DNA of 64,000 bases from Thermoanaerobaculia bacterium (GCA_963719225.1 CAVRAY010000001.1:2432001-2496000); one strand, 5' to 3'; numbered from the stretch's first letter, positions 6,276 to 30,880 are shown. Notes: generated from the letters alone by a model not told the origin. A program made the numbers and translations.

Positions 6276-9080
6276 TCAGGGGGCGAGCCGCTCCCTCACC
6301 TTCGCGACGCCCAGCGCGAGGGCCGGCTCGATCTGGGCCGCGTCCTTGCCGCCCGCCTGCGCGAGATCGGGCTTTCCGCCGCCCTTTCCCCCGACCGCCG
6401 GCGCCATGACCTGCGCCAGCTCGTTGGCGGAGACCCGGGCCACGAGGTCGGACGTCACGGCTGCGAGCAGCGTGACCTTGCCTTCCAGCTCGGTTCCGAG
6501 GAGGACGACGCCGGACTTCAGCTTGCTTCGGAACGTGTCGGCGAGATTACGCAGCTCGTTCGTCGGGAGCGACGGCACGCGGCGGGCGAGGACCTTCACT
6601 CCCGCAATCTCCTCGATGCCATCGTTGTCGCGGCCGGAGACGTCCGAAGAGGACGAAGAGGAAGACTTCTTAGAAGGTGAATGTCCAGAGGCAGAGGCGC
6701 CCGGCTGCCCGCCCGAGGCGACCATCGCGCCTGCGCTCACCCCCGCGCCGCCGCCCGCCAGCGCGAGATCGCGCTTGAGAGCGGCAATCTCTTTTTCTCT
6801 CCTTCTAAGCAAATCGACCATTTCCCTGAGCTTCGAGGGCAGCACGTCGAGCGGTGTGTTCACGATCTGCGAGATCTGAGAAAGGATGTCTTCGTCCCTC
6901 TGGAGCCTTTCGACCGCGTTCAGCGACGTGACCGCCTCGAGGCGGCGGACGCCCGCAGCGAGGCCCTTGTCCGAAAGGACCTTGAAGGCGCCGATTTCGC
7001 CCGTGCGCCCGACGTGACAGCCGGCGCAGAGCTCCGTCGAGAAGCCCGGCACGTCGACCACGCGAACGCGCTCGCCGTACTTCTCGCCGAAGAACATCAT
7101 GGCGCCTTTCTTCTTCGCGTCGTCCATCGACATGACGGCCTTTGACACCTCGCGGTCGCGCAGGATTTCCTCGTTTACGAGGCGCTCGATCTCGCGGATC
7201 TCCTCGGCGGTCGTCGGGCGCGAGGCCGCGTAGTCGAAGCGCAGGCGGTCCGGCGAGACGAGCGAGCCCATCTGGCGAACGCTCTCCCCGAGGACCTTCC
7301 GCAGCGCGGCATGCAGGAGGTGCGTCCCCGTATGGTTCGCCTGGGTCTTGCGGCGCGTCCACTCGGGAACACCCATAGAAACCAACTGCCCGGGGGCCAG
7401 GGCACCAGAAGAAATTCTTAGAAGGTGAAGAATGGCGCGGCCATTGGGCGCGCGGCGCGTGTCGAGGACCGTCGCGGCGCCCGCCTCGCCGCCGGTTCCC
7501 TTCCAGAGGAATTCCCCCTGGTCGGCGACCTGGCCGCCGCCCTCGGGATAGAAGACGGTGCGTTCCATGACGACCCACCCCTGCTGACCAGCGGTGAGGC
7601 GTTCGCCACGTTCGAAGAGACCCTGCTTAGAAGGTGTAAAGAGACCGAGGACTCGCCCGCCTTCCAGGCTCACGAAATCCTGCTCGGGATACCCGCGGAA
7701 TTCGGTCGTCCACGACGGATCGATCTGGTCGTCCGGCGGCAGACCGCCCTCCCCTTCGAACTTCGACGCGCCCTTGCTCCGCTCGCGGGCCGTGGCGAGC
7801 TCCTTTTCGAAGCCCGCAACGTCCAGCTTGACGCCTTCATCAGAAGAAATCTCTTCGATCGTCTCCAGCGGAACACCATACGTGTCATAGAGGCGGAAGG
7901 CAGCCTCGCCCGAAAGAAGCGCCTCGCCGCGACGCCGCATTTCCGAGATCGCCTCGCCGACGCGGTCGACGCCGACAGACATCGTCTTCGCAAAGCGCGC
8001 CTCTTCTTCTTCGATCAACCCGAAGATCGCCTTTGCGCCGGGATTCTCTTCACCTTCAAAGAAAATCTCCAATGACTCCGTTACCCCGGGGACGAGCCTG
8101 AAGAGGAACGTATCGACGATGCCCAGCCGGCGCCCGTACCGGACTGCACGCCGAATGATCTTTCGCAGAACGTATCCGCGGCCTTCATTCGAAGGAATGA
8201 CTCCGTCCGCGATGAGCATCGTCGCGGCGCGGGCGTGATCGGCGACGACCCGGAACGGCGCGTCTTCGACCGCCATCCCTCCGACGTACTTCCGGCCTGA
8301 GATTGCCTCGATCTTCGCGATGATTCGCGCGAACAGGTCCGTGTCGTAGTTGTTGTTCTTTCCCTCGAGGATCGCGGTGATGCGCTCGAGGCCGGCGCCC
8401 GTGTCGACGCTCGGCTTCGGGAGCGGGGTCATCTTCCCGGAGGCGTCGCGGTCGAACTGCATGAAGACGAGATTCCAGATCTCCATGACGCGATCGCCTG
8501 CGCCGTTCGGCGTCGCGTCGCCGGGCACTCCGTCGCCCTGGTCGTAGTGGATCTCGCTGCACGGGCCGCAGGGACCCGTATCGCCCATCGACCAGAAGTT
8601 GTCCTTCTCGCCGAAGCGGGCGATGCGTTCTTTCGGGAGGTACTTCCCCCACAGCGCGGCCGCCTCGTCGTCGTCCGTGAAGACCGTCGCCCACAGGCGC
8701 GAGGGGTGGAGCCCGTAGCGTCCCGTGACGAGCTCCCACGCGTAGTCGACCGCCTCCTCCTTGAAGTAATCGCCGAAGGAGAAATTGCCGAGCATCTCGA
8801 AGAAAGTGTGGTGCCGCGCCGTGTATCCCACGTTGTCGAGGTCGTTGTGCTTGCCGCCCGCGCGCACGCACTTCTGCGAGGAGGTCGCCCGCACGTAGCC
8901 GCGCTTCTCCCGCCCGAGGAAGAGGTCCTTGAACTGGTTCATCCCCGCGTTCGTGAAGAGCAGGGTCGGATCCTCGGCCGGCACGAGCGAGGAGGACGCC
9001 ACGCGCGTGTGCCCCTTCTCCTCGAAGAAGGACAGGAACGTCTCGCGGACCTTGCGGGAGGTCCAGCCGGAGGCCGCCAT
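6276..9080 (-). CDS. alaS: alanine--tRNA ligase
   Basis: LLFTNAGMNQFK, HHTFFEMLGNFSFGDYFK, editing motifs HTGTHLLH and ELCAGCH, and a C-terminal GGKGGG. ATG at 9080. Confidence 0.97.
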   Translation of the reverse strand: MAASGWTSRKVRETFLSFFEEKGHTRVASSSLVPAEDPTLLFTNAGMNQFKDLFLGREKRGYVRATSSQKCVRAGGKHNDLDNVGYTARHHTFFEMLGNFSFGDYFKEEAVDYAWELVTGRYGLHPSRLWATVFTDDDEAAALWGKYLPKERIARFGEKDNFWSMGDTGPCGPCSEIHYDQGDGVPGDATPNGAGDRVMEIWNLVFMQFDRDASGKMTPLPKPSVDTGAGLERITAILEGKNNNYDTDLFARIIAKIEAISGRKYVGGMAVEDAPFRVVADHARAATMLIADGVIPSNEGRGYVLRKIIRRAVRYGRRLGIVDTFLFRLVPGVTESLEIFFEGEENPGAKAIFGLIEEEEARFAKTMSVGVDRVGEAISEMRRRGEALLSGEAAFRLYDTYGVPLETIEEISSDEGVKLDVAGFEKELATARERSKGASKFEGEGGLPPDDQIDPSWTTEFRGYPEQDFVSLEGGRVLGLFTPSKQGLFERGERLTAGQQGWVVMERTVFYPEGGGQVADQGEFLWKGTGGEAGAATVLDTRRAPNGRAILHLLRISSGALAPGQLVSMGVPEWTRRKTQANHTGTHLLHAALRKVLGESVRQMGSLVSPDRLRFDYAASRPTTAEEIREIERLVNEEILRDREVSKAVMSMDDAKKKGAMMFFGEKYGERVRVVDVPGFSTELCAGCHVGRTGEIGAFKVLSDKGLAAGVRRLEAVTSLNAVERLQRDEDILSQISQIVNTPLDVLPSKLREMVDLLRRREKEIAALKRDLALAGGGAGVSAGAMVASGGQPGASASGHSPSKKSSSSSSSDVSGRDNDGIEEIAGVKVLARRVPSLPTNELRNLADTFRSKLKSGVVLLGTELEGKVTLLAAVTSDLVARVSANELAQVMAPAVGGKGGGKPDLAQAGGKDAAQIEPALALGVAKVRERLAP
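6669..6677 (+). repeat. CTTAGAAGG dispersed motif, first of 9 exact copies (others: 6801-6809 -, 7417-7425 +, 7626-7634 +, 14888-14896 +, 19483-19491 +, 19615-19623 -, 20493-20501 -, 30650-30658 -)
   Basis: Read directly from the sequence on both strands. Confidence 0.85.
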
Positions 9081-9114
9081 GGCTCGGAGGATAAGGGGTC
9101 TCCCCCCCACCCCC

Positions 9115-10293
9115 CTAGCCAGGCTGGTTGGAGAAGTCGAACGGCGAGGCCGCCTCCTCCGAGCTGAGCGCATCGGGCGACTGCAGGGCGCCTTCCATGA
9201 GCTCGTTCGCGATGTCCGACGTCGACTGGATGCCCTGCACCTTGAGCTTGAACTCGTTCGGGTTCGACGAGCGGCGGATCGCCTCGTCCAGCGTGATGAG
9301 GCCCGTCTTGTAGAGCTGGAAGAGCGACTGGTCGAACGTCTGCATCCCGTACTGCGAGGTACCGGCCTTGATCGCGTCGTGGATGTACTTCGTCTTTTCC
9401 TTGTTCTCGATGCAATCGCGGATGTAGTTCGTCGCCACGAGCACCTCGACGGCCGGCACGCGGCCGAGGCCGTCCGCGCGCGGGAGGAGGCGCATCGAGC
9501 ACACGGCCTTGATGACGGCCGCGAGCTGGAGGCGGATCTGCTTCTGCTGGTGGGGCGGGAAGACCGAGATGATGCGGTTGACCGTCTCGGTCGCGTCCAT
9601 CGTGTGGAGCGTCGACATGACGAGGTGGCCCGTCTCTGCGGCCACGAGAGCCGTCTCGACGGTCTCGAAGTCGCGCATCTCGCCCACGAGGATGACGTCC
9701 GGGTCCTGCCGGAGGGCGGCGCGGATCGCCGACGCGAACGAGCGCGTGTCCACCTCGAGCTCGCGCTGGTTGATGATCGATTTCTTGTCGCGATGGAGGA
9801 ACTCGACCGGGTCCTCGATCGTCATGATGTGCTCGGCGCGGGTCGAGTTGATGTAGTCGATCATCGCGGCGAGCGACGTGGACTTGCCCGAGCCGGTCGT
9901 CCCGGTCACGAGGATGAGGCCGCGCGTCTCCTCGCAGATTTTCTCGAGAATGGGCGGGAGGAGAAGGTCACGGACCGTGAGGATGCGGGCCGGGATGACG
10001 CGGCAGACCATTCCCACCGTCCCGCGCTGCTGGAAGATGTTGCAGCGGAACCGCCCGAGCCCCGGCACCGAGTACGCGATGTCGATCTCGAAGTTGTTCT
10101 TGAACTTTTCCTTCTGCCGCGAAGACATGATCGAGAACGCCATCGCGATCGTGTCTTCCTGCATCAGGCGCTTGAGGTCCACGAGCGGGGTCAGCTCGCC
10201 GTCGACCCGGATGATCGGATGCGCACCGACCTTCAGGTGGAGGTCGGACGCTTTCCGCTCGACCGAGATCTTGAGCAGGTCGTTGATGTGCAT
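9115..10293 (-). CDS. pilT: type IV pilus retraction ATPase, PilT/PilU family
   Basis: Motifs ASDLHL, GTTGSGKST, TIEDPVE, ALRQDPDVILVGEMRD, STLHT and GMQTFDQSL. ATG at 10293. Confidence 0.9.
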   Translation of the reverse strand: MHINDLLKISVERKASDLHLKVGAHPIIRVDGELTPLVDLKRLMQEDTIAMAFSIMSSRQKEKFKNNFEIDIAYSVPGLGRFRCNIFQQRGTVGMVCRVIPARILTVRDLLLPPILEKICEETRGLILVTGTTGSGKSTSLAAMIDYINSTRAEHIMTIEDPVEFLHRDKKSIINQRELEVDTRSFASAIRAALRQDPDVILVGEMRDFETVETALVAAETGHLVMSTLHTMDATETVNRIISVFPPHQQKQIRLQLAAVIKAVCSMRLLPRADGLGRVPAVEVLVATNYIRDCIENKEKTKYIHDAIKAGTSQYGMQTFDQSLFQLYKTGLITLDEAIRRSSNPNEFKLKVQGIQSTSDIANELMEGALQSPDALSSEEAASPFDFSNQPG

Positions 10294-10420
10294 GAGCGAC
10301 CTCCGGGCCCTTACGGGATTCGGGCAAGGATAAGACTTTTCAGGCACTTGGGTCAACGCGGGGGGTGACACCGAGGCTCGATCTCGCTGTATATTTCGGG
10401 GGCGCCGAGGGAGGACGAAG

Positions 10421-11053: not shown

Positions 11054-13415
11054 AGAGAAGAAGCTGGAGAAAGAAAAGACTTCTATGAAGGTGCCCGACG
11101 CGACGGGGACCGAGACGGTCGTCGAAATAGGCCTCGCTGGCCATACCCTTTCCAAGAGAATCCTTCTTCCTCCCGGCGATCCCGTTCCGTACGACAAGGT
11201 CGACCGTCCGCTGACCGGCAAGCGCCGCCCGCGCCTCGACGGCCCCCAGAAGGTGACCGGCCGGGCCACCTACACGCACGACGTCAGCCGGCCCGGAATG
11301 CTCTACGGGCGCGTCGTGCGGTCTCCCCACGCACACGCCGACATCGTGTCGATCGACACCTCGAAGCTCGACGCGATGGGCGTGGTCTGGGTCAAACCGG
11401 ACAAGAAGAAGGTTCGATACCACGGTGAGGCGGTGCTCGCGCTCGCAGCGGCGACGCCCCAGCTCGCCGACGACGCGCTTCACGCCGTGGCCGTGAAATA
11501 CGACGTGAAGCCGCACACGGTGAGGCTCGTCGACGCGATGAAAGACGGTGCCCCGCTCGTCTTCGAGAAGCCCGTCGAGGAGAAGCGCTCCGCCGGCGAC
11601 GCGCCCGCGGCAGGCGGGGCGGTGGCCCAGCACGGCAATGTGCGCGGCCCGAAGACCTCCGGGAAGGGCGACGTCGCGAAGGGCTTCGCGGAAGCCGACG
11701 CCACGCTCGAGCTGACGATGACGACCGCCGTGCAAACGCACGTCCCCATGGAGACGCACTCGCTCTTCGCCGAATGGGAAGGCGACAACCTGAAGGTGTA
11801 CGCCTCCACTCAGGGCACGTTCACCGTCAAGGACGAGCTCGCGACCGTCCTCGGAATCCCGAAGGACAAGGTCGAAGTCGTGACGGAGTACGTCGGAGGG
11901 GGCTTCGGCGCGAAGTTCGGGGCCGGCGACTACGGCGTCTTCGCGGCGCAGCTCGCGAAGAAGGCCGGCAAGCCGGTGAAGCTGGTCCTCGACCGGAAAG
12001 AAGAGCACCTCGCCGCGGGGAACCGGCCGGACTCCATCAACACGATCAAGGTCGGATACAAGAAGGACGGGACCGTGACGGCCGTCCAGTACACGTCCGT
12101 GGGGACCGCCGGCGTCGCCACCGGGACGGGAACAGGCTCCTTCGCGAAGAACGCGTACGGCTTCGAGAACGTCAAGGTCGACGAGTCTGACGTCTTCACG
12201 CACCTCGGCCCCGGATGTGCGATGCGCGCCCCCGGGCACCCGCAGGGAGCGTTCACCGTGGAGGCCGCCCTCGACGCGGTCGCCGAGGCGTGCGGGCTCG
12301 ACCCGCTCGCCGTGCGCTTCAAGAACGATCCTTCCGAGATCCGCCGCGCGGAATGGGAAGCGGCGGCGAAGGCCATCGGCTGGTCGCGCCGCGACGCGAT
12401 CACACGGGCGAACAAGGCCGCGGCGGCCGCCGGCCTTCCTCTCCGGCGCGGGCTCGGATGCGCCGCTGCCGTCTGGTACAACATCGTCAACAAGGGCTCG
12501 CAGGTCCAGGTCCGGATCCACAAGGACGGCGCCGTCGAGGTCGAAAACGGCGTCCAGGAGATCGGCTGCGGCATCCGCACGGCGATCGGACTCGTGACCG
12601 CGGAGGAGCTGGGCCTCCCCGTCGAGGCCGTGAGCGTTCACATCGGCAACTCGAAGTATCCCTACGGGCCCGCCTCCGGTGGGTCGACGACGACGGCCTC
12701 CCTCATCCCCGCCGTCCGCGCGGCGGCTTTCCACGCGGCGCGGAAGATGGCCGAGATCGCCGCTCCGCTCCTCGGGGCGAAGCCGGAAGACGTCAAGCTC
12801 GAGGGCGGCGCGTTCCTCGCGAACGGAAAGCGCGCCGACTGGGCGAAGGTCTGCTCGCGGATGAGCGGAGAGTCGATCCTCGCGACCGGCGACCGCGCTC
12901 CCGACTACGACGGGGCCGATCCGCGCCTCCTGGGCGCGCAGTTCGCCGACGTCGTCGTGGACGTCGAGACGGGCGTCGTGAAGGTCGAGAAGGTCGCCGC
13001 CGCGCACACATGCGGCCTTCCCGTGTGGAGGACGGGCGTCGAGAGCCAGATCCGGGGCGGCGTGCTGCAGGGCGTCAGCTACGCGCTCTTCGAGGAGCGC
13101 GTCATCGACCTTCCGACGGGCCGCTTCCTGAACCCGAACATCGAGCAGTACAAGATCCTCGGCGCCAAGGACGTCCCCGAGGTCGTGACCATCGTCCTCG
13201 ACCTCTTCGCCGGCAAGAACAACGCGCACGTGAGAGGCATCGGCGAGCCCGCCACCGTCCCGACCGCCGCGGCGATCGCAAACGCCGTCTCCCACGCGCT
13301 CGGCAGCCGCGTCACGGACCTGCCCATCACGCCGGCGCGCATCCTGGCCGCCGCACCCACCATCGTCAATCCGCTCCGCGCCGAAAGGCCGGCGGGAGCC
13401 GAGGTGAAATCATGA
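11046..13415 (+). CDS. xanthine dehydrogenase family molybdopterin-binding large subunit (PaoC/YagR-like)
   Basis: Motifs KVTGRATY, VRSPHAHA, VGGGFGAK, MRAPG, SGGS and RGIGEP. GTG 11046 overlaps the upstream gene. Confidence 0.9.
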   Translation: MAEEKKLEKEKTSMKVPDATGTETVVEIGLAGHTLSKRILLPPGDPVPYDKVDRPLTGKRRPRLDGPQKVTGRATYTHDVSRPGMLYGRVVRSPHAHADIVSIDTSKLDAMGVVWVKPDKKKVRYHGEAVLALAAATPQLADDALHAVAVKYDVKPHTVRLVDAMKDGAPLVFEKPVEEKRSAGDAPAAGGAVAQHGNVRGPKTSGKGDVAKGFAEADATLELTMTTAVQTHVPMETHSLFAEWEGDNLKVYASTQGTFTVKDELATVLGIPKDKVEVVTEYVGGGFGAKFGAGDYGVFAAQLAKKAGKPVKLVLDRKEEHLAAGNRPDSINTIKVGYKKDGTVTAVQYTSVGTAGVATGTGTGSFAKNAYGFENVKVDESDVFTHLGPGCAMRAPGHPQGAFTVEAALDAVAEACGLDPLAVRFKNDPSEIRRAEWEAAAKAIGWSRRDAITRANKAAAAAGLPLRRGLGCAAAVWYNIVNKGSQVQVRIHKDGAVEVENGVQEIGCGIRTAIGLVTAEELGLPVEAVSVHIGNSKYPYGPASGGSTTTASLIPAVRAAAFHAARKMAEIAAPLLGAKPEDVKLEGGAFLANGKRADWAKVCSRMSGESILATGDRAPDYDGADPRLLGAQFADVVVDVETGVVKVEKVAAAHTCGLPVWRTGVESQIRGGVLQGVSYALFEERVIDLPTGRFLNPNIEQYKILGAKDVPEVVTIVLDLFAGKNNAHVRGIGEPATVPTAAAIANAVSHALGSRVTDLPITPARILAAAPTIVNPLRAERPAGAEVKS

Positions 13416-14423
13416 AGGCGTTCGAGCGCGTTCAGCCCGCCTCGTGGGAAGACGCGGCCGCCGCCCTGGCGGCCGCGAAAAAGGCCGGCGTCGCCGCCGA
13501 GGCGAAGGGCGCCGGGACGGACATCCTCGACCGGCTCAAGGAGCGGAGCGCCGCGCCGGACCGCCTCGTCGACCTCCGCCGGCTCACGGGAAACGACACC
13601 ATCGAGAAGTCTCCTTCCCAGATCGCGATCGGCGCCCTCGTCACGCTGACGCGCGTCGCCGAAGGCCTGCGCGCCGAGCTCCCCGCCCTCGCCGCCGCGT
13701 GCGAAGGCGCGGCGACCCCGCAGATCCGGAACGCCGCGACACTCGCGGGAAACCTCTGCCAGCGCCCGCGGTGCTGGTACTTCCGCTCCGCCGACTTCAC
13801 CTGCCTGAAGAAGGGCGGAGGCGAGTGCTATGCGCAAAAGGGCGAGAACGCGTTCCACGCCATCTTCGGGAACCGCACGTGCGCGATCGTCCACCCTTCG
13901 GCGGCAGGAGTCGCGCTCGCGGCGTACGGAGCGCGCGATCGAGACTCTCTCCGCGGGATCCAAGCGGACGATTCCGATCGCCGATTTTTTCGTGACTCCC
14001 GAGGTGAACCTCGCGGGTGAGAACGCGCTCGCCGACGGTGAGCTCATCACCCGCATCGTCGTGCCCCGCCGCGCGGGCCTTCGATCGGCCTACCGCAAGA
14101 TCAAGCACAAGCAGACTTTTGACTGGCCGCTCGCCGACGCCACCGTTGTCTACCGCGACGACGGAGGCATCGCCCGCGACGTGAGAATCGTGATCGGGTC
14201 GGCAGCTCCCGTGCCGTGGCGCGTGAAGAAGGCCGAGGCGCTCGTCGAGGGTCAACACATCGACGGAACGCTCGCCGCGCGGGCTGCCGCCGCCGCGACC
14301 GAAGGCGCCACGCCGCTCGCGGGCAACGCGTACAAGCTGCCGCTCGTCTCGGCGGCCGTCCGGCGCGCGCTGCTGGGCGCCGCGGGGCTTCCCGACGGGA
14401 CCGAAAGGGCACCACAGGCATGA
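13412..14423 (+). CDS. FAD-binding subunit (PaoB/YagS-like), split by a +1 frameshift near 13931-13940
   Basis: N-terminal half has GAGTD, ATPQIRNAATLAGNLCQRPRCWYFR and CAIVHPS. C-terminal half (IPIADFF...GSAAPVPWR...NAYK) is in the next frame. Confidence 0.85.
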
Positions 14424-14653: not shown

Positions 14654-14686
14654 AAGGCGGCGGGCGGGCAGAAGAGCGAGATCGAG

Positions 14687-15307
14687 CTGTTCGTCTCCGG
14701 AGTTCTTCTCGCGGCAGGTGCCTCCACGCGCTTCGGATCTTCGAAGATGCTCGCGCCGGTCGGAGAAGAAAAAACACCTTTGCTTCGCAGGGTGCTGGAG
14801 ACATGGCTCGCATCCGGGTTCGACGAGGTGATCGTCGTTCTGGGAAGGGATGCCGCTGACATTCGAGCCAGGCTCGAAGAGAACCTGCTTAGAAGGGTCA
14901 ATGGGGAAGAATCAGCCGCAGCGCCTGTCCGCTTCGTCGAGAACCCGAAGTGGGAGGCTGGGATGTTTTCTTCTGTGAAAGCGGGGCTCGCCGCGACGTC
15001 CGCCCACTCGACGCACATCGCCATCTCCCCCGCCGATCTTCCCTTTCTAAGCAAAGGTACTCTTCGGACCGTGATCGGTGCAGCAGCCTCCGCCGACGAG
15101 CGCACGGTCGTCGTTCCGACCTTCGGCCGCCGCCGCGGGCATCCGCTCGTGATTCCCGCGTCCCTTCGGGCGCGTCTGCTCTCCTGGCCCGACACCGCCC
15201 GCTTGAATCTTCTCTTCGAGGAAAAAGATCTCTCGGTCCTCCATCTCGAAGGCTTCGATGAAAGCATCCTTCATGACGTCGACACGCCGGGCGATCTCTC
15301 CCGATGA
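14687..15307 (+). CDS. molybdenum cofactor cytidylyltransferase-like NTP transferase (MocA/MobA family)
   Basis: Motifs GVLLAAGASTRFG..K, GMFSSVKAG, PADLP, GHP and DVDTP. The signature motif lies upstream of the first ATG (14747), so the start is uncertain (CTG 14687 used). Confidence 0.82.
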   Translation: MFVSGVLLAAGASTRFGSSKMLAPVGEEKTPLLRRVLETWLASGFDEVIVVLGRDAADIRARLEENLLRRVNGEESAAAPVRFVENPKWEAGMFSSVKAGLAATSAHSTHIAISPADLPFLSKGTLRTVIGAAASADERTVVVPTFGRRRGHPLVIPASLRARLLSWPDTARLNLLFEEKDLSVLHLEGFDESILHDVDTPGDLSR

Positions 15308-17904: not shown

Positions 17905-17922
17905 GCGCGGATCTGCGAAGCG

Positions 17923-18933: not shown

Positions 18934-19734
18934 TCAAGCGGAATCGACCAACTTCGCAAGCGCCACGACCACGGCGGTCTCGAGGCGGAGAATGCGGGGG
19001 CCGAGAGAGAAGAAAAGAGCACGGTTTTCTTCGAATAACGAGATTTCGGCCGGAGCGAACCCACCCTCGGGACCGATGGCGACAAGGGAGGGCTGGGAAA
19101 ACGCCTGGGCGCCGCCCAGAGGCGCCGCTGGATCCAACACGACGAGCCTTTCCCCTCTTACCTCTCCAAGAAACTCTTCGGTGCTCTTCGGACCTTCCAC
19201 TCCCGGCACGATCGTCCGGTCGCACTGCTTCGTCGCTTCGACGGCGATCCGGCGCAGGCGCTCGAGGCGGGCGGGCGACGAGAGCGCCGTCACGTGCGAC
19301 TTCTGCGACCGTTCGCACGCGAGGAGGACGAAACCCGCCGCTCCGCATTCCGTGCCCTTCTCGATCGCCCATTCGACGCGCGCGGGCTCGGCGCACGCGA
19401 GGGCGACGGTCACGCGGTTCGCGGGCTCGCCGGGGAGAGAAGGGGAAGAAGAAGAGGAAGAGGAGGAAGAAGAGAAGATCTTCTTAGAAGGTAATAGGGC
19501 GATCGCGGCGCCTCCCCTCGCGAGAACGGCCCTGACACGTGCGCCCTTTCCGTCGAGCGCGATGACCTCGTCGCCGTCGCGCAGGCGCCTCGAGCGAACG
19601 TGTTCTCTCTCTTCCCTTCTAAGTAGAATCTCTTTCTTCCGGTCTTCGTGCTCTTCGAACGTCGCCATCTGCTCCGCCAGATCGGGCACGTAGACCCGTG
19701 GCGGCCGCGCGGGGGCGGGGGCGTTCTCACTCAT
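18934..19734 (-). CDS. rsmE: 16S rRNA m3U1498 methyltransferase
   Basis: Motifs EKGTECG, EATKQC, IGPEGGF and LGPRILRLETA; lies after prmA. Confidence 0.9.
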   Translation of the reverse strand: MSENAPAPARPPRVYVPDLAEQMATFEEHEDRKKEILLRREEREHVRSRRLRDGDEVIALDGKGARVRAVLARGGAAIALLPSKKIFSSSSSSSSSSPSLPGEPANRVTVALACAEPARVEWAIEKGTECGAAGFVLLACERSQKSHVTALSSPARLERLRRIAVEATKQCDRTIVPGVEGPKSTEEFLGEVRGERLVVLDPAAPLGGAQAFSQPSLVAIGPEGGFAPAEISLFEENRALFFSLGPRILRLETAVVVALAKLVDSA

Positions 19735-20572
19735 TCGAAGAAGCCCACGCTGTCCCGAGCCATTCGTTCTCCTGAATGGATCGGACCAGCCGAAAGCCTT
19801 CCTTCCGAAGCAGAATCTCCCACTCCCCTTCCCTCTCCACGAGCTGTCCGGAACAGAGAAGCCTCCCGCCCGGCGCGAGATGCCCGCGGAGCACCGCAAG
19901 GAGCGGAGCCGTCTCCTCGTGGATCATGTTCGCCACGACGAAGTCGAACCGGGCTTCGTCTCGGATCGCCTCGAGGGGACCGGCGAACGCCTCGACGCGC
20001 GGAATCCCGTTCGCGCGGGCCTGCTCGCGCGTCGCGAAGGCGGCGAGTGGGTCGACGTCGAACGCCACGACCCGGCGCGCCCCTTCGAGCGTGGCGACGA
20101 ACGCGAGCGTCCCGGTGCCGCAGCCCACGTCGAGGACCCGCGCGCCGCGCAGGTTCTCCGCGAGGAGGAGACGCACGGCGATGCGCGTGGACTCGTGCGA
20201 GCCGGTCCCGAAGGCGCGGACCGCGGGAAGGAAGAGCCGACGAACGCCGGGAGGCGCCGCAGTTGCGAGAGGACCGTCGTGTGGGTCGAAGAGAAATTTC
20301 TCGACGAGCACGGCCTTCCTCAAGGCAGCCGACTCGGCGACCCAATCGGTGGATTCTTCTTCGAAGGTGGAAAGACCGCGAGCGCCGAGCGCCTCGAGTG
20401 CGGAAAGCGCAGCCGCGACGTCCCACGTTCGGACCCAGAGAAAGAGTTTGCCATCCACGTCGGCCGCAGACGAAAACTCCAGCCCCCCTAACCCTTCTAA
20501 GAAATCCCCATGGTTCTCTTCGAATCTGGCGGCCAGCTTCGCGGGGACTTCAATGCGAACCGCAGTTGTCAT
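19727..20572 (-). CDS. prmA: ribosomal protein L11 methyltransferase
   Basis: Motifs AFGTGSHESTR, VLDVGCGTGTLA and VVANM; synteny after dnaJ. Confidence 0.9.
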   Translation of the reverse strand: MTTAVRIEVPAKLAARFEENHGDFLEGLGGLEFSSAADVDGKLFLWVRTWDVAAALSALEALGARGLSTFEEESTDWVAESAALRKAVLVEKFLFDPHDGPLATAAPPGVRRLFLPAVRAFGTGSHESTRIAVRLLLAENLRGARVLDVGCGTGTLAFVATLEGARRVVAFDVDPLAAFATREQARANGIPRVEAFAGPLEAIRDEARFDFVVANMIHEETAPLLAVLRGHLAPGGRLLCSGQLVEREGEWEILLRKEGFRLVRSIQENEWLGTAWASSNE

Positions 20573-21751: not shown

Positions 21752-21773
21752 GGCAGGCTGCTAGGGCTCGGAG

Positions 21774-23624: not shown

Positions 23625-23639
23625 GGTGCTCCTCCTGGC

Positions 23640-25428: not shown

Positions 25429-25557
25429 CGCGACGCAAGGCCCTCCGCCCTTGCCTGACTCCCTGAGCTTCCCGGGAGAGGGCCATGATATCAAAGCGAC
25501 TCGCCCTCGGGTGTAAGATCAGATGCCCCCTGGGGAGGTCGGCAGAGCCTTATCCGT

Positions 25558-26901
25558 ATGGTTTTCTTCAATTACGCGACGATGCAGATGGCCGCCAAGA
25601 TCGTGTACTACGGTCCGGGCCTCTGTGGGAAAACGACGAATCTTCACGTGATTTACGGGCGCACGGCACCCACCTCTCGAGGGGAGATGGTCTGTCTCGA
25701 GACGGAAACGGACCGGACGCTCTTCTTCGACCTCCTTCCCCTCGACGTCGGCGTCATCGGCGGATTCAAGACCCGTCTTCAGCTGTACACCGTCCCCGGA
25801 CAGGTCTTCTACAACACGACCCGGAAGCTCGTCCTCAAGGGCGTGGATGGAATCGTATTCGTCGCCGACTCGCAGCGACCCATGAAGGATCCGAACGTCG
25901 AGAGCCTCCGCAACCTCCGGGAGAACCTCGCGGAGATCGGCGTGTCACTCGATGCGACTCCCCGCGTTTTCCAGTACAACAAACGGGACCTCGCGAACAT
26001 CCTGACACTCGACGAGCTCAACGAGGCGTTGAACCCGGACGGCTCAATCGAGTGGTACGAGGCGTCGGCGACGAACGGGACGGGAGTCTTCGAGACCCTC
26101 AAGGCGATCTCGAAGCTGACCCTGCGCTCGCTCAAGGGACGGATGGCCGTCGAGCAGCGGCGTCCCGCGGTCGTCGCGTCCGCGGCCACGCCGGGTCCCC
26201 AGCCGCTCATGTCGTCCAAAGCCGCCGCGTCGGGCATCGGCGAAGCCATCGACGCGATGGCGACGTCTGCGGTCTCCGCGTCCCATGTCGCGCCGGGAGA
26301 CGGCTTCGACTCGACGATCTCCCGTCTCAAGCGCTTCCAGGAAGCCGCCCGGCAGTCCCGCGATCTCGATTCACGCGAAATTCCAGCCGACACCTCGCCC
26401 GCGATTCCCCTTCCCGCCGAAACCGCCCCGTTCGACGCCGCCAATTTCCCGCATCCCGACGACGCGTCCAGCGAGGTGAGTTTTGCCGAGATCCAGCCTC
26501 CGCCGGACGACGTCCCCATGGACTCTTCGATGAAGCACGTGCGCGTGCGCTCGAACGTCGACATCCTTTCCGAGCTCGAAAAGCTCCGCAAGCTCGCGAC
26601 GCAGCGGCCCGCCTCGCCGAGCGGCTCCCACAAGACGAAGACCAAGAGCGCGGCCGACGTCTCGCTCGACGACCTGCTCGGGTCGACGCGGAATCACCGC
26701 AAGGACGTGGTGCAGTCGTTCGACCTCCAGGTCCCCCGCGACACGCTCGCGAAAACCCGGCACGTGACGGTCGGGCTTTCGTTCGGGGACGGAGAGGGCG
26801 CCGCGCTCGGCTCCGAGAAACGGTTCGACGTGGATTTCGCGGGCTTGAAGGACATCAACAAGCTCCTGCTTTCGCTGAAGTTCCATGTCAAAGGCGAGTG
26901 A
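25558..26901 (+). CDS. MglA-like small GTPase with long C-terminal extension
   Basis: KIVYYGPGLCGKTTNL, RTLFFD, LYTVPGQVFY and YNKRD; about 250 extra C-terminal residues. Confidence 0.88.
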   Translation: MVFFNYATMQMAAKIVYYGPGLCGKTTNLHVIYGRTAPTSRGEMVCLETETDRTLFFDLLPLDVGVIGGFKTRLQLYTVPGQVFYNTTRKLVLKGVDGIVFVADSQRPMKDPNVESLRNLRENLAEIGVSLDATPRVFQYNKRDLANILTLDELNEALNPDGSIEWYEASATNGTGVFETLKAISKLTLRSLKGRMAVEQRRPAVVASAATPGPQPLMSSKAAASGIGEAIDAMATSAVSASHVAPGDGFDSTISRLKRFQEAARQSRDLDSREIPADTSPAIPLPAETAPFDAANFPHPDDASSEVSFAEIQPPPDDVPMDSSMKHVRVRSNVDILSELEKLRKLATQRPASPSGSHKTKTKSAADVSLDDLLGSTRNHRKDVVQSFDLQVPRDTLAKTRHVTVGLSFGDGEGAALGSEKRFDVDFAGLKDINKLLLSLKFHVKGE

Positions 26902-26957
26902 GGCCGGGGGCGATTTCGCTTGACCTCGTGCTCCCGGCTCGGGTCCACTTCCAAACG

Positions 26958-28796
26958 ATGAGTATCCGCCGGCGTCTTCTTGCCCGGGTCGCGGGCCTCC
27001 TGGCGGGGCTTCTGCCGTTCGTGATCGCCGGCTGTTCGGCAGCGCCTCGCGAGGTCCCGGTGACTTCAGCCGCACCGCCGGAGGACCCGCCGGCGATCTC
27101 CGCGGCGCGCAAGCTCGCCTCCGAGCAGTTCCACCAGGGCAAGGCGCTCGCGCTCGAGGGCGAGAGCGATTGCGCCCGCCAGGCATTCCGCGATGCCCTC
27201 GAGGGCTTCCGGATCGCGGCCCGAGAGGGCAACCCCTCCGATCTCGCCTTTGCGAGAGAGCTCTACGATTCGATCACTCTTTACCGCCCCGCGATCGAAG
27301 CCGGCGCGCGGGCACGCGAAGCCGAACGGCCGCCGGCCGAAGACCCGCGCGACAGCCTCGTCGCCACGGCGCCGCTCCCCTCTGCCGACGAGGTCGAGAA
27401 GGCCAAGAAGGAGGTCTCGTCGGCACCTTCCGGAATCGGCTTCGACATCCCGATCGTCGTGAACGACGCCGTTCTCAAGGCCGTCGCCTTTTACCAGTTC
27501 CGGACGCCCATGGCCTTCGCCGCGGCCCTGAAGCGCAAGGGACGCTATCTCGACCTCATGCGCGGGATCCTCAGGGAAGAGGGGGTTCCCGAGGACCTCG
27601 TCTACGTCGCGATGGTCGAATCCGCCTTCAAGTACCAGGCACATTCCCGCGCCGCCGCGCACGGCTTCTGGCAGTTCATCGCGGGCACCGGCAAGCGTTA
27701 CGGCCTCAAGCGGAACGGCTCGCTCGACGAGAGGAGCGATCCGATCAAGTCCACGCGCGCCGCAGCGGCCTATTTCCGCGACCTGTACGAGATGTTCGGC
27801 GACTGGCATCTCGCGATGGCCGCGTACGACGCGGGCGAGGGTCGGATTCTGAAGGGACTCCAGCGCACCGGCGCGCGCGATTTCTGGGAGCTCGCGGCGG
27901 GCGGCAGCCTCCGGCGCGAGACCCGCGATTACGTCCCCTTCGTTCTCGCGACGGCCCTCATCGCGAAAGATCCGGCGCGCTTCGGTTTCGACGTCGTGCC
28001 CGATCCGCCACTCGCGTGGGAAACGGTGACGGTGCGGAAGAGTGTCGATCTCGCGCGCGTGGCCGACCTCACCCATTCGACGCTGCCGGAGCTCCAGCTT
28101 CTCAACAGCGAACTGAGGACCCGTGCGACTCCGCACGGTGTTTCCACGTACGACGTACGCGTTCCCGCCGGCTCGGCGGCCCTTCTGGCGTCGCAGATCG
28201 CTGCCCTGCCCGCCGCGCACGCCGTCCTCGAGAAGCGCGTCGTCGTCCGGAAGGGTGAAACGCTCCAGAAGATCGCGCGCCGCGCGCGCGTGTCCGTGGC
28301 CGAGCTGTGCGACTGGAACGACCTGCCCCGCACGGCCCGCCTGAAGAAGGGCACCGTGCTCGTCGTGCCGGGCAACCGCGGGACCGTCCCGAAACGTGTC
28401 GCGGTCGCTTCGGAGTCTCGCGCACCTCAGGGCGAGATCCGCGGCGTTCCGACGCCCGCGGCCGCCGTGACGTCGGCGTCCGGCGTCGGGCCATACACGT
28501 CTGTTCCGCTCACGACCGATTCGCGGCAGAGCGGCCCGGCGGGAGCCCTCGAGATTCCCCAGGAAGGGTTCGTCGATTCACCTTCGCGAACCGCCCTGGC
28601 AAAGAGCACGAAGGCGCAGGAAGTACGCGGCATCCGCGTCGTCCGCCACACGGTCAAGAAGGGCGACACGCTTTACTCCCTCGCCGCTCGATACGGGACG
28701 ACGATCGACGCCATCCTCCGCGAGAACCGCCTTCGCTCTCCGCACTCGCTCAAGGCCGGGCAGACGCTCGTCCTCTCGCTCGTCGCTCTGAACTGA
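26958..28796 (+). CDS. MltD-like lipoprotein lytic transglycosylase with LysM domains
   Basis: Lipobox VIAGC; motifs VESAF, GFWQF and ETRDYV; two LysM domains (VRKGETL, VKKGDTLYSLA). Confidence 0.9.
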   Translation: MSIRRRLLARVAGLLAGLLPFVIAGCSAAPREVPVTSAAPPEDPPAISAARKLASEQFHQGKALALEGESDCARQAFRDALEGFRIAAREGNPSDLAFARELYDSITLYRPAIEAGARAREAERPPAEDPRDSLVATAPLPSADEVEKAKKEVSSAPSGIGFDIPIVVNDAVLKAVAFYQFRTPMAFAAALKRKGRYLDLMRGILREEGVPEDLVYVAMVESAFKYQAHSRAAAHGFWQFIAGTGKRYGLKRNGSLDERSDPIKSTRAAAAYFRDLYEMFGDWHLAMAAYDAGEGRILKGLQRTGARDFWELAAGGSLRRETRDYVPFVLATALIAKDPARFGFDVVPDPPLAWETVTVRKSVDLARVADLTHSTLPELQLLNSELRTRATPHGVSTYDVRVPAGSAALLASQIAALPAAHAVLEKRVVVRKGETLQKIARRARVSVAELCDWNDLPRTARLKKGTVLVVPGNRGTVPKRVAVASESRAPQGEIRGVPTPAAAVTSASGVGPYTSVPLTTDSRQSGPAGALEIPQEGFVDSPSRTALAKSTKAQEVRGIRVVRHTVKKGDTLYSLAARYGTTIDAILRENRLRSPHSLKAGQTLVLSLVALN

Positions 28797-28891
28797 GGCT
28801 CCGAGATCCCATGCGGGGCGTGGCCCCTTATCCTCGTTGCGTCGTCAGCAGCCGAGGCGTTGATGGTCGCGGGGGCTCCGGCCCCGGCTGC

Positions 28892-28932
28892 TTGCATGCT
28901 ATGAATGCAGCGCCTATAGTGTCTGCATGCAA
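28892..28932 (+). promoter_or_regulatory. sigma70 promoter with overlapping inverted repeat (probable toxin-antitoxin operator)
   Basis: TTGCAT-17 nt-TATAGT ends 6 nt before ATG 28927. TTGCATGC (28892-28899) and GCATGCAA (28925-28932) are inverted. Confidence 0.7.
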
Positions 28933-29169
28933 TACACAGTCCGTGGAATTCCCGAAGAGCTCGACGCCGCGATGCGCGAGCGCGCGCGGCGCGAGGGGAA
29001 GAGCCTCAACGAGGTTGCGGTCGCGGCGCTCGCCGAAGGGATCGGCCTCGGGGACGAGCCTGTCGTGAGGCGCGATCTCGCCGACATCGTCGGGACCTGG
29101 AAGAGAGAGGCGGCGGTCGAGAAAGCGCTCGCGGCGCAGGACGAGGTGGACGAGAGCCTCTGGAGATGA
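28927..29169 (+). CDS. ribbon-helix-helix antitoxin (FitA/VapB-like)
   Basis: MQYTVRGIPEELDAAMRERARREGKSLNE fits the RHH pattern; ATGA overlap with the toxin. Confidence 0.85.
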   Translation: MQYTVRGIPEELDAAMRERARREGKSLNEVAVAALAEGIGLGDEPVVRRDLADIVGTWKREAAVEKALAAQDEVDESLWR

Positions 29170-29549
29170 GGCTTGCCCTCGACACGAATCGCTACGTCGA
29201 TCTGTGCAACGGTCGCGCTCAGACGGCTGAGCTCGTCGCCACGGCCGAGGAGGTTCTCCTTCCCTTCATCGTCGTCGCCGAGCTCCGCGCCGGCTTCTCG
29301 ATCGGCCGCCGATCCGCCGAGAACGAGCGCGTCCTCCGGCTCTTCCTCCTGAAGAGCGGCGTCCGCGCCCTCTACGCCGACGAGCAGACGACACACCACT
29401 ACGCGGCCGTCTTCCGGCAGCTTCGGAGACAAAGCACGCCGATCCCCACGAACGACATCTGGATCGCCGCATTGGTGCTCCAGAACGACCTCGCTCTGCA
29501 CGCCCGCGACAAGCACTTCGACGAGCTGCCGCAGATCGTCAGAAGGTAG
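29166..29549 (+). CDS. vapC: VapC-family PIN domain toxin
   Basis: Motifs LDTN, VAEL, IPTNDIWIAA and RDKHF. Confidence 0.92.
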   Translation: MRLALDTNRYVDLCNGRAQTAELVATAEEVLLPFIVVAELRAGFSIGRRSAENERVLRLFLLKSGVRALYADEQTTHHYAAVFRQLRRQSTPIPTNDIWIAALVLQNDLALHARDKHFDELPQIVRR

Positions 29550-29673
29550 CGCCGCCCCGGATGTTTGCGACCGCGACGTAAACCGCGCAACCACACGCGC
29601 GCGGCGTGGAGAACGGCGGCGTTTCGACGCGACGGGCTCCCCACACCGCGTCCGGTGCATGTCAGATCTTGAG

Positions 29674-29698
29674 ATGCACGTCACTAATCCGCGGGGTC
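29674..29698. repeat. 25-bp direct repeat, copy 1 (ATGCACGTCACTAATCCGCGGGGTC)
   Basis: Identical to 32409-32433. Confidence 0.9.
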
Positions 29699-29943
29699 CC
29701 GAGCACGCGTTCGAGGTCCAGCTTCCGTTCCTGCAGCGAATCCTCGGCGAGGGCTTCACGTTCCTTCCCGTAGCCGTCTCGGAGCAGTCGGCTTCGGAGA
29801 AGGCGGATCTCATCGACGTGTTCCTCGGCGAGACCGGCACGCTGGTCCTCGTAAGCACCGACCTCAGCCACCATCACGGCGTCGAGACCGCCCGCCGGCT
29901 CGACCGCGAAACGGCGGAGAACGTCGTCGCGCGGAAAGCAAAC
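29698..29943 (+). pseudogene. internal fragment of an AmmeMemoRadiSam protein B (Memo family) gene
   Basis: EHAFEVQLPFLQ and VSTDLSH motifs. Cut at the repeat on the left and at IS481 on the right. Confidence 0.75.
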
Positions 29944-30880
29944 TGTCGGGGCTAAACAGATTGTTCACTCTGGACACCGGCGGTTTACCTCCGAGTGAGG
30001 AGTGCTGGCGGTGGAAATTGTAGTAGTGGAGCCAGCGCGGTAAAGCGTGGCGGCGCTTTGCTGAGGAAGAGTAAGAGCGGCGATAGGCCCACTCCCTGAG
30101 CATGGTCTGGATGAAGCGCTCGGCCTTGCCGTTGGTGCGCGGGCGGTAGCGGTGGGTGAAGCCGTGCCGAATCGAGGCCCTGTCGAGGACTTCGTTGAAA
30201 GTGCCCGAGGTAAAGACCTTGCCGTTATCGGTGAGGAGTCGTCGGGGCTGTATCCCCGAGCCGCGGTACCAGGCGATGGCGCGCTCGAGGAATCCGGCCG
30301 CCGTGTGTTTGTCTTCGGTTTTCAGCGGCTCGACGTAGCTCAGGCGCGAGTGGTCGTCGATGCACACGTAGATGTGCTCGTAGCCGACGCCGCGCTTCAT
30401 TCTTGTGCGGTCGCCGTGGATGCGGTGGCCTGGACCTCCGACGATGTGGGCCAGCTTCTTGATGTCGATGTGGAGGAGGTCTCCGGGATTCGGGAGCTCG
30501 TAGCGATTCGGCGGCTCGGGCGGCTGACGGGATCGCAGACGGCCCACGCCGGCCTTTCGAAGAATCCGGCTCACCGTGGCCCGTGGCAGCCCGATCGTCT
30601 CGGAGATCTCGCGCCCCACGAGGCGCTTCTGGCGCATCTCCAGTACCCTCCTTCTAAGCTTCTCTGGCGTTCGCGTGGGAGAGCTGCGCGGCCGGCTCGT
30701 TCGGTCCAACAGCCCCGCCAAGCCTTCCTCACGGTAGCGCCTCAGCCCCTTGGCCACGGTTCTGACGCTCAGTCCAAGGGCTTCCGCCGCCTCCCGGCGG
30801 CTCCAGCCCTCGGACTGCACTCTGTGGACGGTTAGCTCTCGACTTCGGGGGTTCGTTCTTGCTCTGCTATGGCAGTTCAT
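29864..30880 (-). CDS. IS481-family DDE transposase (frame reads through the IS end)
   Basis: HTH N-terminus; motifs HIDIKK, IDDHSR, TDNG, TNGKAERF and YN.HR.HSSL. Confidence 0.92.
   Translation of the reverse strand: MNCHSRARTNPRSRELTVHRVQSEGWSRREAAEALGLSVRTVAKGLRRYREEGLAGLLDRTSRPRSSPTRTPEKLRRRVLEMRQKRLVGREISETIGLPRATVSRILRKAGVGRLRSRQPPEPPNRYELPNPGDLLHIDIKKLAHIVGGPGHRIHGDRTRMKRGVGYEHIYVCIDDHSRLSYVEPLKTEDKHTAAGFLERAIAWYRGSGIQPRRLLTDNGKVFTSGTFNEVLDRASIRHGFTHRYRPRTNGKAERFIQTMLREWAYRRSYSSSAKRRHALPRWLHYYNFHRQHSSLGGKPPVSRVNNLFSPDSLLSARRRSPPFRGRAGGRSRRRDGG

What the first reader, a model, noticed from the sequence alone, without database searches (positions are those of the whole stretch)
6669..30658. 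Over-represented intragenic 9-mer CTTAGAAGG: candidate DNA-uptake or chromosome-organising sequence
Seen: nine exact copies, at 6669+, 6801-, 7417+, 7626+ (alaS), 14888+ (mocA-like), 19483+, 19615- (rsmE), 20493- (prmA) and 30650- (IS481 transposase). Near-copies lie at 8053, 11083, 15043, 20359, 39992, 44802 and about 46467. A rough independent-base estimate at about 69% GC gives roughly 0.2 copies per window on both strands. Flanks share a looser consensus, about RRAGATTTT-CTTAGAAGG-TGAAGA. Copies are read in four registers (CCT-TCT-AAG = PSK, CTT-AGA-AGG = LRR, CTT-CTA-AGA = LLR, TTA-GAA-GGG = LEG) and use TTA/CTA/AGA codons that look rare elsewhere in the window. Inference: selection acts on the DNA rather than the protein. 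Established: Neisseria DUS, Pasteurellaceae USS and matS/SlmA/Noc sites are similar dispersed intragenic motifs, but I recognise this as none of them. pilT and comM in the window are compatible with competence.
Basis: partly seen in the sequence, partly recalled or inferred. Interest (0 to 1): 0.85.

Follow-up and report, generated by a model that had tools for sequence, protein, structure and literature searches.

The report
Facing DNA site pairs near terminus
A soil bacterium's chromosome carries about 500 copies of a 30-letter DNA word that even rewrites essential proteins, mostly as pairs facing each other at least about 72 letters apart and crowded into the half of the chromosome copied last, which likely makes them docking sites for a still unknown protein that would help fold or separate that half.

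Summary
Real, and larger than reported. The 9-mer is the core of a ~30-bp asymmetric motif (purine tract-TTCTTNGAARG-KGAAnRGG) in a Thermoanaerobaculia genome. It has 207 exact copies and ~500 matrix sites, about 100-fold above a synonymous-codon null.

(1) Sites form head-to-head pairs: 206 of 344 strong sites have a facing partner, against 2 of 344 in the control. Spacing has a floor near 72 bp and a mode near 80 bp, with no helical phasing and no clear arm covariation.
(2) Density steps up 2-2.6-fold in the dif-centred half of the chromosome, with no leading-strand bias.
(3) Sites are kept at synonymous positions across the genus and mostly arose in place.

The motif is abundant in one genus and sparse in its sister genus. 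It fails tests for matS, KOPS/Chi, REP/REPIN and RPE, and departs from known uptake sequences. Best reading: paired sites for an unidentified chromosome-organising protein (0.5). An uptake-type signal is the rival (0.25). No binder was found. Two earlier scan notes saw the pairs on other genomes.

The parts
6656..6686 (+). Motif site (35 bits), left arm of a facing pair with 6792-6822 (140 bp core to core). Antisense in alaS; encodes HSPSKKSSS in a Ser-rich linker insert absent from outgroups
6792..6822 (-). Motif site (31 bits), right arm of the alaS pair (DLLRRRE). Pair present in 17 of 18 close alaS copies, spacing 74-140 bp
7404..7434 (+). Motif site (36 bits) in alaS (LHLLRISSG; outgroups have HHVKV/HRVRV). 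Unpaired here; a site at this position faces a partner 169-184 bp away in 12 of 18 aligned copies
7613..7643 (+). Motif site (26 bits) in alaS (FTPSKQG); nearest facing site 435 bp away
8044..8074 (-). Motif variant TTCTTTGAAGG (33 bits) in alaS (IFFEGE)
11070..11169 (.). Facing pair, weak left arm (12 bits) and 20-bit right arm, 73 bp, at the start of a molybdopterin oxidoreductase gene
14875..15064 (.). Facing pair (26 and 29 bits), 163 bp, inside the mocA-like gene
19016..19183 (.). Possible facing pair (10 and 21 bits), 141 bp, inside rsmE
19470..19636 (.). Facing pair (38 and 28 bits), 140 bp, inside rsmE
20346..20514 (.). Facing pair (21 and 30 bits), 142 bp, inside the prmA-like gene
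30641..30671 (-). Exact 9-mer in the IS481 transposase without the flanks (11 bits) and without a partner; probably a chance copy, not part of the system
39983..40013 (-). Single intergenic site (30 bits) just upstream of secA
44789..45002 (.). Facing pair (17 and 22 bits), 187 bp
46456..46622 (.). Facing pair (17 and 15 bits), 140 bp, inside the rarA-like ATPase gene

Best explanation
The motif is likely the binding site of an unidentified lineage-specific protein that would act on two sites facing each other and would help organise or segregate the terminus-proximal half of the chromosome.

Shown: a ~30-bp asymmetric word, held at DNA level inside and between genes. About 60% of strong sites have a facing partner, seldom closer than ~70 bp (15 of 338 pairs below 66 bp), most often 76-85 bp, tailing to ~300 bp. 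There is no helical phase, no strand bias and no clear arm-to-arm covariation. Density is 2-2.6-fold higher in the dif-centred half.

Inferred: each site holds a complex reaching about 35-40 bp inward, so two complexes meet head to head. They would either bridge a short U-turn through a flexible linker or bracket something that slides between them. This would set the floor and explain the missing phase. A weaker same-strand element (purine tract-TTYTGCT) 62-73 bp upstream of some sites fits a footprint of about 65 bp. A MatP-like job in the late-replicated half is inferred from position alone.
For: Orientation: 65 of 112 facing neighbours lie within 300 bp, against 4 of 112 back-to-back; 338 against 21 within 500 bp; 206 of 344 against 2 of 344 with a flank-only score.

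The floor is under selection: alaS linker length varies between species, but pair spacing stays 74-140 bp in 17 of 18 copies. An ileS pair stays at 82-86 bp in 15 of 17 genus copies.

Arms match the consensus, not each other. Duplex energy is -21.3 against -21.4 for shuffled partners. G-U-type and A-C-type mismatches are 330 and 310 along transcripts. Phase test p=0.25.

Position: dif is at C1 2.0376 Mb and dnaA on C2. A symmetric step at 0.51 of each arm fits best (logL -309.1; linear -314.8; uniform -345.7; 348 clusters). GC and coding density are equal in both halves, and unrelated control words are flat. G019 shows 89 against 26 sites per 400 kb with similar orthologous cover, 79% and 75%. 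G231 has 78 of 119 sites within 1 Mb of dif, in 2.0 of ~4.1 Mb.

Domain-restricted over-representation is how matS was found (PMC4786541, passages).
Against: No binding protein was identified. MatP was not found in 5 of 5 genomes. The dif-linked ParB-like protein has the same recognition helix in motif-free relatives. One small basic family-specific protein also occurs in motif-free genomes and has no significant fold match.

Rigid loops of 80-150 bp usually show helical phasing (own knowledge), and none was found. About 40% of strong sites are unpaired. The origin half still holds about a quarter to a third of the sites.

The three genomes showing the step are largely syntenic, so gene identity and position are not separated. 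The order of contigs C1/C2 is assumed, and G000 has 6% contamination. Two core positions showed weak arm agreement (86 vs 78.0, p~0.045; 133 vs 128.6, p~0.06). Genus-wide gene mosaicism is not explained by this model.
Confidence: 0.5

Rival explanations
1. A genus-specific DNA uptake signal. A surface or periplasmic receptor would prefer fragments carrying the word, best as a facing pair that lets the duplex fold back into the pore. Biased uptake plus homologous recombination would drive the word into permissive places in core genes.
For: It shares the evolutionary marks of DUS/USS (PMC2817400, passages): both orientations, all frames, under-representation in coding DNA (12.6 vs 71 sites per 100 kb in the dense half) and poorly conserved protein positions. 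It arises by substitution in 34 of 41 cases. It is absent from species-specific DNA: 1 site in 66.5 kb, about 9 expected. It doubles to sextuples motif-encoded peptides such as PSKK. Competence genes are present. Four genes are mosaic across the genus (quartet clustering 0.08-0.15), against about 0.01-0.04 in motif-free groups and about 0 in the null; alaS segment trees conflict.
Against: Known uptake sequences are spread more evenly than random and reach 0.8-0.9 cores per kb. Here there are 0.04 exact cores per kb, clumped, with a 2-2.6-fold step. Their pairs are intergenic terminators; here 93 of 162 pairs lie inside one called gene, the inner gap is about 40 bp or more, and only 3 of 35 intergenic pairs lie between convergent genes. 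Mosaicism is not tied to sites: site-poor, origin-near polA scores 0.092 and site-rich ileS 0.083. Competence genes do not track the motif. The motif-free controls are few (17 quartets in g13) and less diverse.
Confidence: 0.25
2. A Chi-like recombination or repair handle. A nuclease-helicase entering from either end would be stopped by the site facing it, so a facing pair would protect and recombine the short segment between the sites.
For: It explains orientation, the missing phase, a minimum length and the decay with distance without needing a loop (inference). Indels are 4-5-fold more frequent downstream of sites than upstream. The genus shows short-patch mosaicism.
Against: No leading-strand bias (260 of 546), which Chi sites show (own knowledge). 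The same protein stretches are variable between low- and no-motif relatives (drop 0.24, 4 genes). Mosaic patches in alaS do not end at sites. The motif is far longer (28.6 bits) than known Chi words.
Confidence: 0.1
3. Relic ends of a miniature mobile element (MITE, REPIN or Rickettsia-type palindromic element) that inserted widely and then decayed inside.
For: The arms are inverted. In the parB-dif spacer whole pairs are present in some species and absent in others. 7 of 41 cores lie in lineage-specific insertions.
Against: Interiors are unrelated between loci except in paralogous kinase genes. In genes they align with motif-free orthologues. The outer flank fades gradually, with no sharp end. 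No Y1/RAYT transposase was found in G000 or G019. Arms are more conserved than their interiors.
Confidence: 0.05
4. The two arms pair with each other as an RNA or single-stranded DNA stem, or are the repeats of invertible segments.
For: Any two arms can form a duplex of about -21 kcal/mol.
Against: True partners pair no better than shuffled ones, and there is no G-U excess along transcripts. A stem forms equally from back-to-back copies, which are not enriched. Interiors fold no better than random DNA. No Rfam match. Inversion would break essential genes such as alaS and ileS (inference).
Confidence: 0.05

Closest known systems
matS/MatP Ter macrodomain system (PMC4786541 and PMC6379681, passages read)
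   Same: Over-represented word concentrated around dif, no strand bias, found by domain-specific enrichment.
   Different: About 500 asymmetric ~30-bp sites rather than a few dozen short palindromes (matS size and number recalled). It covers half the chromosome with only a 2-2.6-fold step and forms facing pairs. No MatP homologue was found.
Neisseria DUS / Pasteurellaceae USS (PMC2817400, passages read)
   Same: Non-palindromic, lineage-specific, both strands, all frames, arises by mutation in permissive protein positions, missing from accessory DNA, reshapes the proteome.
   Different: About 20-fold sparser, unevenly spread, and pairs lie inside genes at 72-300 bp rather than as terminators. 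No receptor or uptake bias shown.
KOPS and Chi (KOPS: PMC4786541, passages; Chi recalled)
   Same: Directional chromosome-maintenance words; KOPS is also richer in the ter half.
   Different: No leading-strand bias (260 of 546), whereas GGGNAGGG in this genome is skewed as expected.
REP/BIME/REPIN with RAYT (BIME-gyrase link: PMC6379681, passages; REPIN and RAYT features recalled)
   Same: Inverted doublets with a preferred spacing, enriched just after stop codons (60 sites in the first 50 bp).
   Different: Mostly intragenic, not palindromic hairpins, interiors unrelated, no Y1 transposase in the two high-copy genomes tested.
Rickettsia palindromic elements (PMC10969869, passages read)
   Same: Repeat sequence translated in frame inside housekeeping proteins.
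   Different: RPEs are ~150-bp insertions encoding a conserved peptide. Here the interior is the host gene's own sequence and the arms mostly arise in place.
Head-to-head site logic of type III/ISP restriction enzymes, eukaryotic ORC-MCM loading and CTCF anchors (all recalled, no paper read)
   Same: Two inverted asymmetric sites, a minimum spacing, and no helical phasing.
   Different: Analogy only; no such enzyme was linked to the motif. Restriction sites are not enriched in their own genome.

Membership tests
DNA uptake sequence (DUS/USS) | Strong over-representation, both orientations, non-palindromic | tested here: met
DNA uptake sequence (DUS/USS) | Scarce in genes without homologues, placed in poorly conserved residues | tested here: met
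DNA uptake sequence (DUS/USS) | Even spread round the chromosome at about 0.8-0.9 per kb | tested here: not met
   0.04 per kb, 2-2.6-fold step, clumped in pairs; reference values from PMC2817400
DNA uptake sequence (DUS/USS) | Dyad pairs are intergenic terminators | tested here: not met
   93 of 162 pairs within one called gene; 3 of 35 intergenic pairs between convergent genes
DNA uptake sequence (DUS/USS) | Sequence-biased uptake by a competent cell | not testable with these tools
   needs a cultured member; competence genes are present but also in motif-free relatives
matS/MatP | Enrichment around dif | tested here: met
matS/MatP | MatP protein in the genome | tested here: not met
   PF06303 in 0 of 5 genomes, control rings in E. 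coli
matS/MatP | Palindromic site confined to the Ter domain | tested here: not met
   only the TTC-N3-GAA core is a dyad; flanks asymmetric; many sites in the origin half
KOPS / Chi | Leading-strand bias | tested here: not met
   260 of 546, p=0.28; unpaired sites 105 of 240, p=0.06
SlmA/Noc binding sites | Excluded from the terminus region | tested here: not met
   enriched there; feature from PMC4786541
REP/REPIN | Y1/RAYT transposase in the genome | tested here: not met
   PF01797 not found in G000 or G019; found in G174, G082, G166
REP/REPIN | Extragenic, with conserved palindromic interior | tested here: not met
   341 of 450 strong sites in reading frames; interiors unrelated and not unusually folded
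MITE / Rickettsia palindromic element | Insertion of a shared interior between terminal repeats | tested here: not met
   34 of 41 cores align without insertion; interiors orthologous to motif-free genes
Intragenic inverton | Reads showing both orientations of the interior | tested here: inconclusive
   no raw reads; contigs of relatives only; the 15 joints shown of 64 were all skips, none changed strand
Structured RNA family | Compensatory pairing between arms or an Rfam match | tested here: not met

The most novel reading that the evidence does not exclude
A new class of bacterial chromosome signal: asymmetric sites that work only head to head, with a hard minimum spacing and no helical phase, like miniature CTCF or ORC-type anchor pairs. 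They mark the terminus half of the chromosome, and selection on them is strong enough to rewrite tRNA synthetases and kinase domains. The system is caught at rising copy number from a sister genus (few sites) to this genus (hundreds).
Probability: 0.35. Interest if true: 0.9.

Novelty: new variant of a known kind. Interest (0 to 1): 0.72.

Why it matters
Only a handful of dispersed chromosome-maintenance words are known, nearly all from model organisms. None of the families tested combines facing pairs, a spacing floor and a mid-arm density step. If the sites organise the terminus half, they point to an unknown MatP-like solution in Acidobacteriota and give a ready bait for finding its protein. 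If they are uptake signals, they would be a further independent origin of sequence-specific uptake, with a new two-site geometry, in an unusually recombining soil genus. Either way the graded copy number (0, tens, hundreds) across sister genera makes the rise of such a signal, and its cost to proteins, directly testable.

Tried and rejected
Helical phasing of pair distances: none. A second spacing peak near 140 bp, striking in this window: p=0.06 in G000 and not seen in relatives, p=0.41.

A consensus inside the pairs: none; only mild GC/TGCG excess.

Anti-Shine-Dalgarno or 16S mimicry: the reverse strand resembles the 16S 3' junction, but the anti-SD is standard and sites show no sense bias. 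Promoter reading: no second box in the matrix, and sites are depleted just after starts and lie on both strands before them.

Accessory-DNA explanation of the sparse half: orthologous cover is similar. Site-induced local hypervariability: the same stretches vary in low- or no-motif relatives. Site-linked recombination: not seen.

Other dialects in relatives: 200 kb near dif in a motif-free genus showed no comparable paired word.

Viral contigs: 120 or more single 16-mer hits; none of the 80 loci examined had GC above 50%, so chance in AT-rich viruses. Phylum scan for the pair: 4 of 4 genus genomes and 1 of 297 others, the latter inside a long perfect inverted repeat.

Binder hunt: the dif-linked ParB-like protein, HU/IHF copy number, a subtractive screen against 600 kb of G082 (void because G082 carries low-level pairs), and two small basic proteins. 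None tracks the motif. The wide structural search was not obtained.

Sequencing runs: only small-share contigs, no evidence either way.
Full report
OBSERVATION. The nine copies are as listed; shuffles give 0.08. The window is C1:2,432,001-2,496,000 of a 4.75-Mb, two-contig genome, 97% complete and 6% contaminated. Its closest named alaS relatives are Thermoanaerobaculia. The genome holds 207 exact copies, 196 on C1 against 9.6 from an order-4 Markov model, and the top-scoring 9-mers by z-score are overlapping words of the same motif. I called 4,211 genes with my own hexamer model, which can clip N-termini. In them the 9-mer occurs 119 times, against 1.1 and 3.15 under two synonymous shuffles.

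THE REAL UNIT. Column profiles show a ~30-bp asymmetric motif: a purine tract fading in from about -24, then W-T-T-C-T-T-N-G-A-A-R-G, then KGAAnRGG to about +17 (28.6 bits). A matrix finds 546 sites above 22 bits, against 62 in the reversed genome. Of 450 sites above 25 bits, 109 are intergenic, 191 sense and 150 antisense, in all six registers. Per base, intergenic DNA holds about five times more. The IS481 copy lacks the flanks and a partner. A second, same-strand element (purine tract-TTYTGCT) lies 40-110 bp upstream of 39 of 606 sites, mostly at 62-73 bp, and mainly where the site's own purine tract is poor.

PAIRING. Successive CTTAGAA copies lie within 300 bp in 65 of 112 facing arrangements, 4 of 112 back-to-back and 11 of 158 same-strand. 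With the three central bases ignored, 206 of 344 strong sites have a facing partner 50-230 bp ahead, against 2 of 344 behind. Of 338 facing combinations within 500 bp (the 97-bp pairs of paralogous kinases left out), 15 are below 66 bp, 17 at 66-75 and 44 at 76-85, then a long tail; back-to-back combinations number 21. G019 repeats this, with 39 facing of 46 close neighbours. There is no 10-11-bp phase.

Partners resemble each other no more than shuffled partners overall (two positions borderline, p about 0.045 and 0.06), and show no G-U excess. Interiors are unrelated except among tandem kinase paralogues. Of 162 unique pairs, 93 lie in one called gene and 38 are wholly intergenic; some short 'genic' calls are doubtful.

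CONSERVATION. 74 of 88 strong sites in aligned blocks recur at the same place in G019, at about 78% identity. Third codon positions in cores are 82% identical, against 64% elsewhere. In alaS, sites replace outgroup residues in place (HHVKV to HLLRI) or sit in a Ser-rich insert absent from outgroups. The C-terminal pair is in 17 of 18 close copies (two look identical) at 74-140 bp, never shorter, although the linker varies by over 20 residues. An ileS pair keeps 82-86 bp in 15 of 17 genus copies (four more dropped for failed ORF extraction), 1 of 3 sister-genus copies and 0 of 6 motif-free copies. Against G082, 34 of 41 cores align without an insertion, and the surrounding protein stretches are variable even between low- and no-motif relatives.

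RANGE. TTTCTTAGAARG occurs 27-245 times in 24 of 24 genus genomes and in 0 of 16 from other families of the order (one of the 16, G025, is unpublished and counts only as a negative here and). In 251 class genomes only the genus and G174 (25 copies) exceed 4. In the sister genus 6 of 8 genomes have 14-35 copies of a looser pattern, against controls of 1-5; two have 3; 25 other family genomes have 0-3. Even G082 keeps a few facing pairs. The pair pattern was found in 1 of 297 other phylum genomes, inside an unrelated perfect inverted repeat. These are samples, and kin are not independent.

CHROMOSOME POSITION. dnaA is at C2 0.326 Mb. dif is at C1 2.0376 Mb, near the skew maximum. Assuming C1-C2 order, density by tenths of each arm runs 2-9 per 100 kb in the origin half and 11-24 in the terminus half. 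With clusters collapsed, a symmetric step at 0.51 of each arm (2.68 vs 1.02 per 25 kb) beats a linear gradient by 5.7 log units. Unrelated control words are flat (0.73-0.99); words overlapping the motif reach 1.2-1.6. There is no leading-strand bias (260 of 546).

In G019, 400 kb sampled from the dense part holds 89 sites and 400 kb from the sparse part 26, with 79% and 75% alignable to G000, mapping mostly to the same halves. In G231, 78 of 119 sites lie within 1 Mb of dif (19 unlisted places taken to lie beyond the last listed). Synteny makes these three genomes non-independent.

UPTAKE AND RECOMBINATION. comEC and dprA occur in 5 of 5 genomes tested, two of them motif-free, and ComEA-type domains in 59 of 61. 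Species-specific stretches of G019 hold 1 site in 66.5 kb, about 9 expected from the flanking rates; any slowly accumulating site would show this. Genes of the genus are mosaic: alaS segment trees conflict. Quartet clustering is 0.09, 0.14, 0.08 and 0.15 for polA, valS, ileS and alaS (150 quartets of 11 genomes each). It is -0.04 to 0.09 in 17 motif-free quartets, 0.01 in another family and about 0 in the null. It does not follow local site density, and parAB next to dif is barely mosaic. So recombination coincides with the motif at genus level only.

MECHANISM. Sequence-specific arms that do not covary, one favoured orientation and a spacing floor point to protein bound on duplex DNA (inference). 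An inward reach of 35-40 bp per complex gives a floor near 72-80 bp for facing sites. With an outward reach of about 25 bp it gives about 65 bp for same-strand neighbours, matching the upstream element (inference). The lack of phase argues for a flexible bridge or a sliding step rather than a rigid loop (own knowledge). The mid-arm step around dif suggests a role in the late-replicated half (inference from position; precedent in PMC4786541). I put this at 0.5, an uptake signal with two-site geometry at 0.25, a Chi-like handle at 0.1, element relics and RNA or inversion models at 0.05 each, and the remainder unassigned.

No binder was found. MatP was not found in any of the 5 genomes searched, and Y1/RAYT was not found in G000 or G019. 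The dif-linked ParB-like protein is order-wide with a near-invariant helix. A 164-aa basic protein, nearly confined to the family (26 of 28 family genomes, 1 of 12 outside), is predicted as two three-helix units plus a disordered tail. It has no significant structural match and also occurs in motif-free genomes, so it is only a name for a pull-down list.

LITERATURE. Searches: Thermoanaerobaculia + overrepresented + motif, 0 papers; uptake sequence + Acidobacteria, 1 unrelated; seven broader searches listed nothing on this motif or lineage (listings only). Passages read: PMC2817400, PMC4786541, PMC6379681, PMC10969869. No supplements were opened, and subscription journals are mostly outside the library. 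Features of Chi, REPIN, type III enzymes, ORC and CTCF are recalled. Two earlier scan notes on other genomes describe the same facing pairs. I had found the pairing before reading them; their short entries do not mention the terminus step, the spacing floor or the upstream element.

VERDICT. A real, lineage-specific, DNA-level signal with an architecture that fits none of the families tested; function inferred, protein unknown.

Noticed in passing
L150:7865-9524 (G000 C1 2.0379-2.0395 Mb): A second parA-parB-like operon lies beside dif, besides the usual one near dnaA. The ParB-like gene was found in 29 of 30 genomes of the order tested, with dif just downstream in most of those inspected. dif is flanked by two motif pairs in G000.
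   Followed up: partly
L467:3048-3539 (-): Uncharacterised 164-aa basic protein nearly confined to the family: two predicted three-helix units, a basic tail with an AT-hook-like RGRP in some members, and a short C-terminal helix. Possible nucleoid protein; no link to the motif shown.
   Followed up: partly
L157 (G000 C1 2.293-2.320 Mb): Tandem array of about nine Ser/Thr kinase-like paralogues; these and further copies elsewhere carry a facing pair 97 bp apart that rewrites the N-terminal kinase lobe (EEFFEGEE / DFLEGEE) (kinase label read from the sequence).
   Followed up: partly
L075-L088, L377-L395, L407-L424, L437-L452: Housekeeping genes of this genus are finely mosaic between species at about 80% nucleotide identity, more than in neighbouring groups; worth a study of its own.
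   Followed up: partly
G000 C1 1.103-1.116 Mb and 2.197-2.209 Mb: Arrays of a repeated TAACGATAT word spaced 0.5-1.5 kb apart, the first next to a tyrosine recombinase that reads like an integron integrase (label recalled, not tested): probable cassette arrays.
   Followed up: no
L151:5130-5840 (G000 C2 230.1-230.8 kb): A facing pair 85 bp apart sits just upstream of comEA and a pilin-like gene; a pair lies at the same place in G001.
   Followed up: no
G019 C2 107.8 kb and 838 kb: dif and dnaA are only 0.73 Mb apart in this relative: a strongly unbalanced chromosome or a misjoin.
   Followed up: no
G000 C2 217-303 kb and 575-615 kb; C1 56-62 kb: Two tmRNA genes with slightly different tags and two tRNA-Pro(TGG) on C2, and a poly-A/ACAAAC-rich low-complexity stretch on C1; may reflect the 6% contamination or assembly artefacts.
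   Followed up: no
window 13412-14423: The FAD-binding subunit of the molybdopterin oxidoreductase is split into two overlapping ORFs matching the two halves of the family, a likely frameshift.
   Followed up: no
G443 C33:12207-12310: In a distant Acidobacteriota genome the 11-mer flanks a long perfect inverted repeat of REP-doublet appearance; a single case, taken as chance.
   Followed up: no
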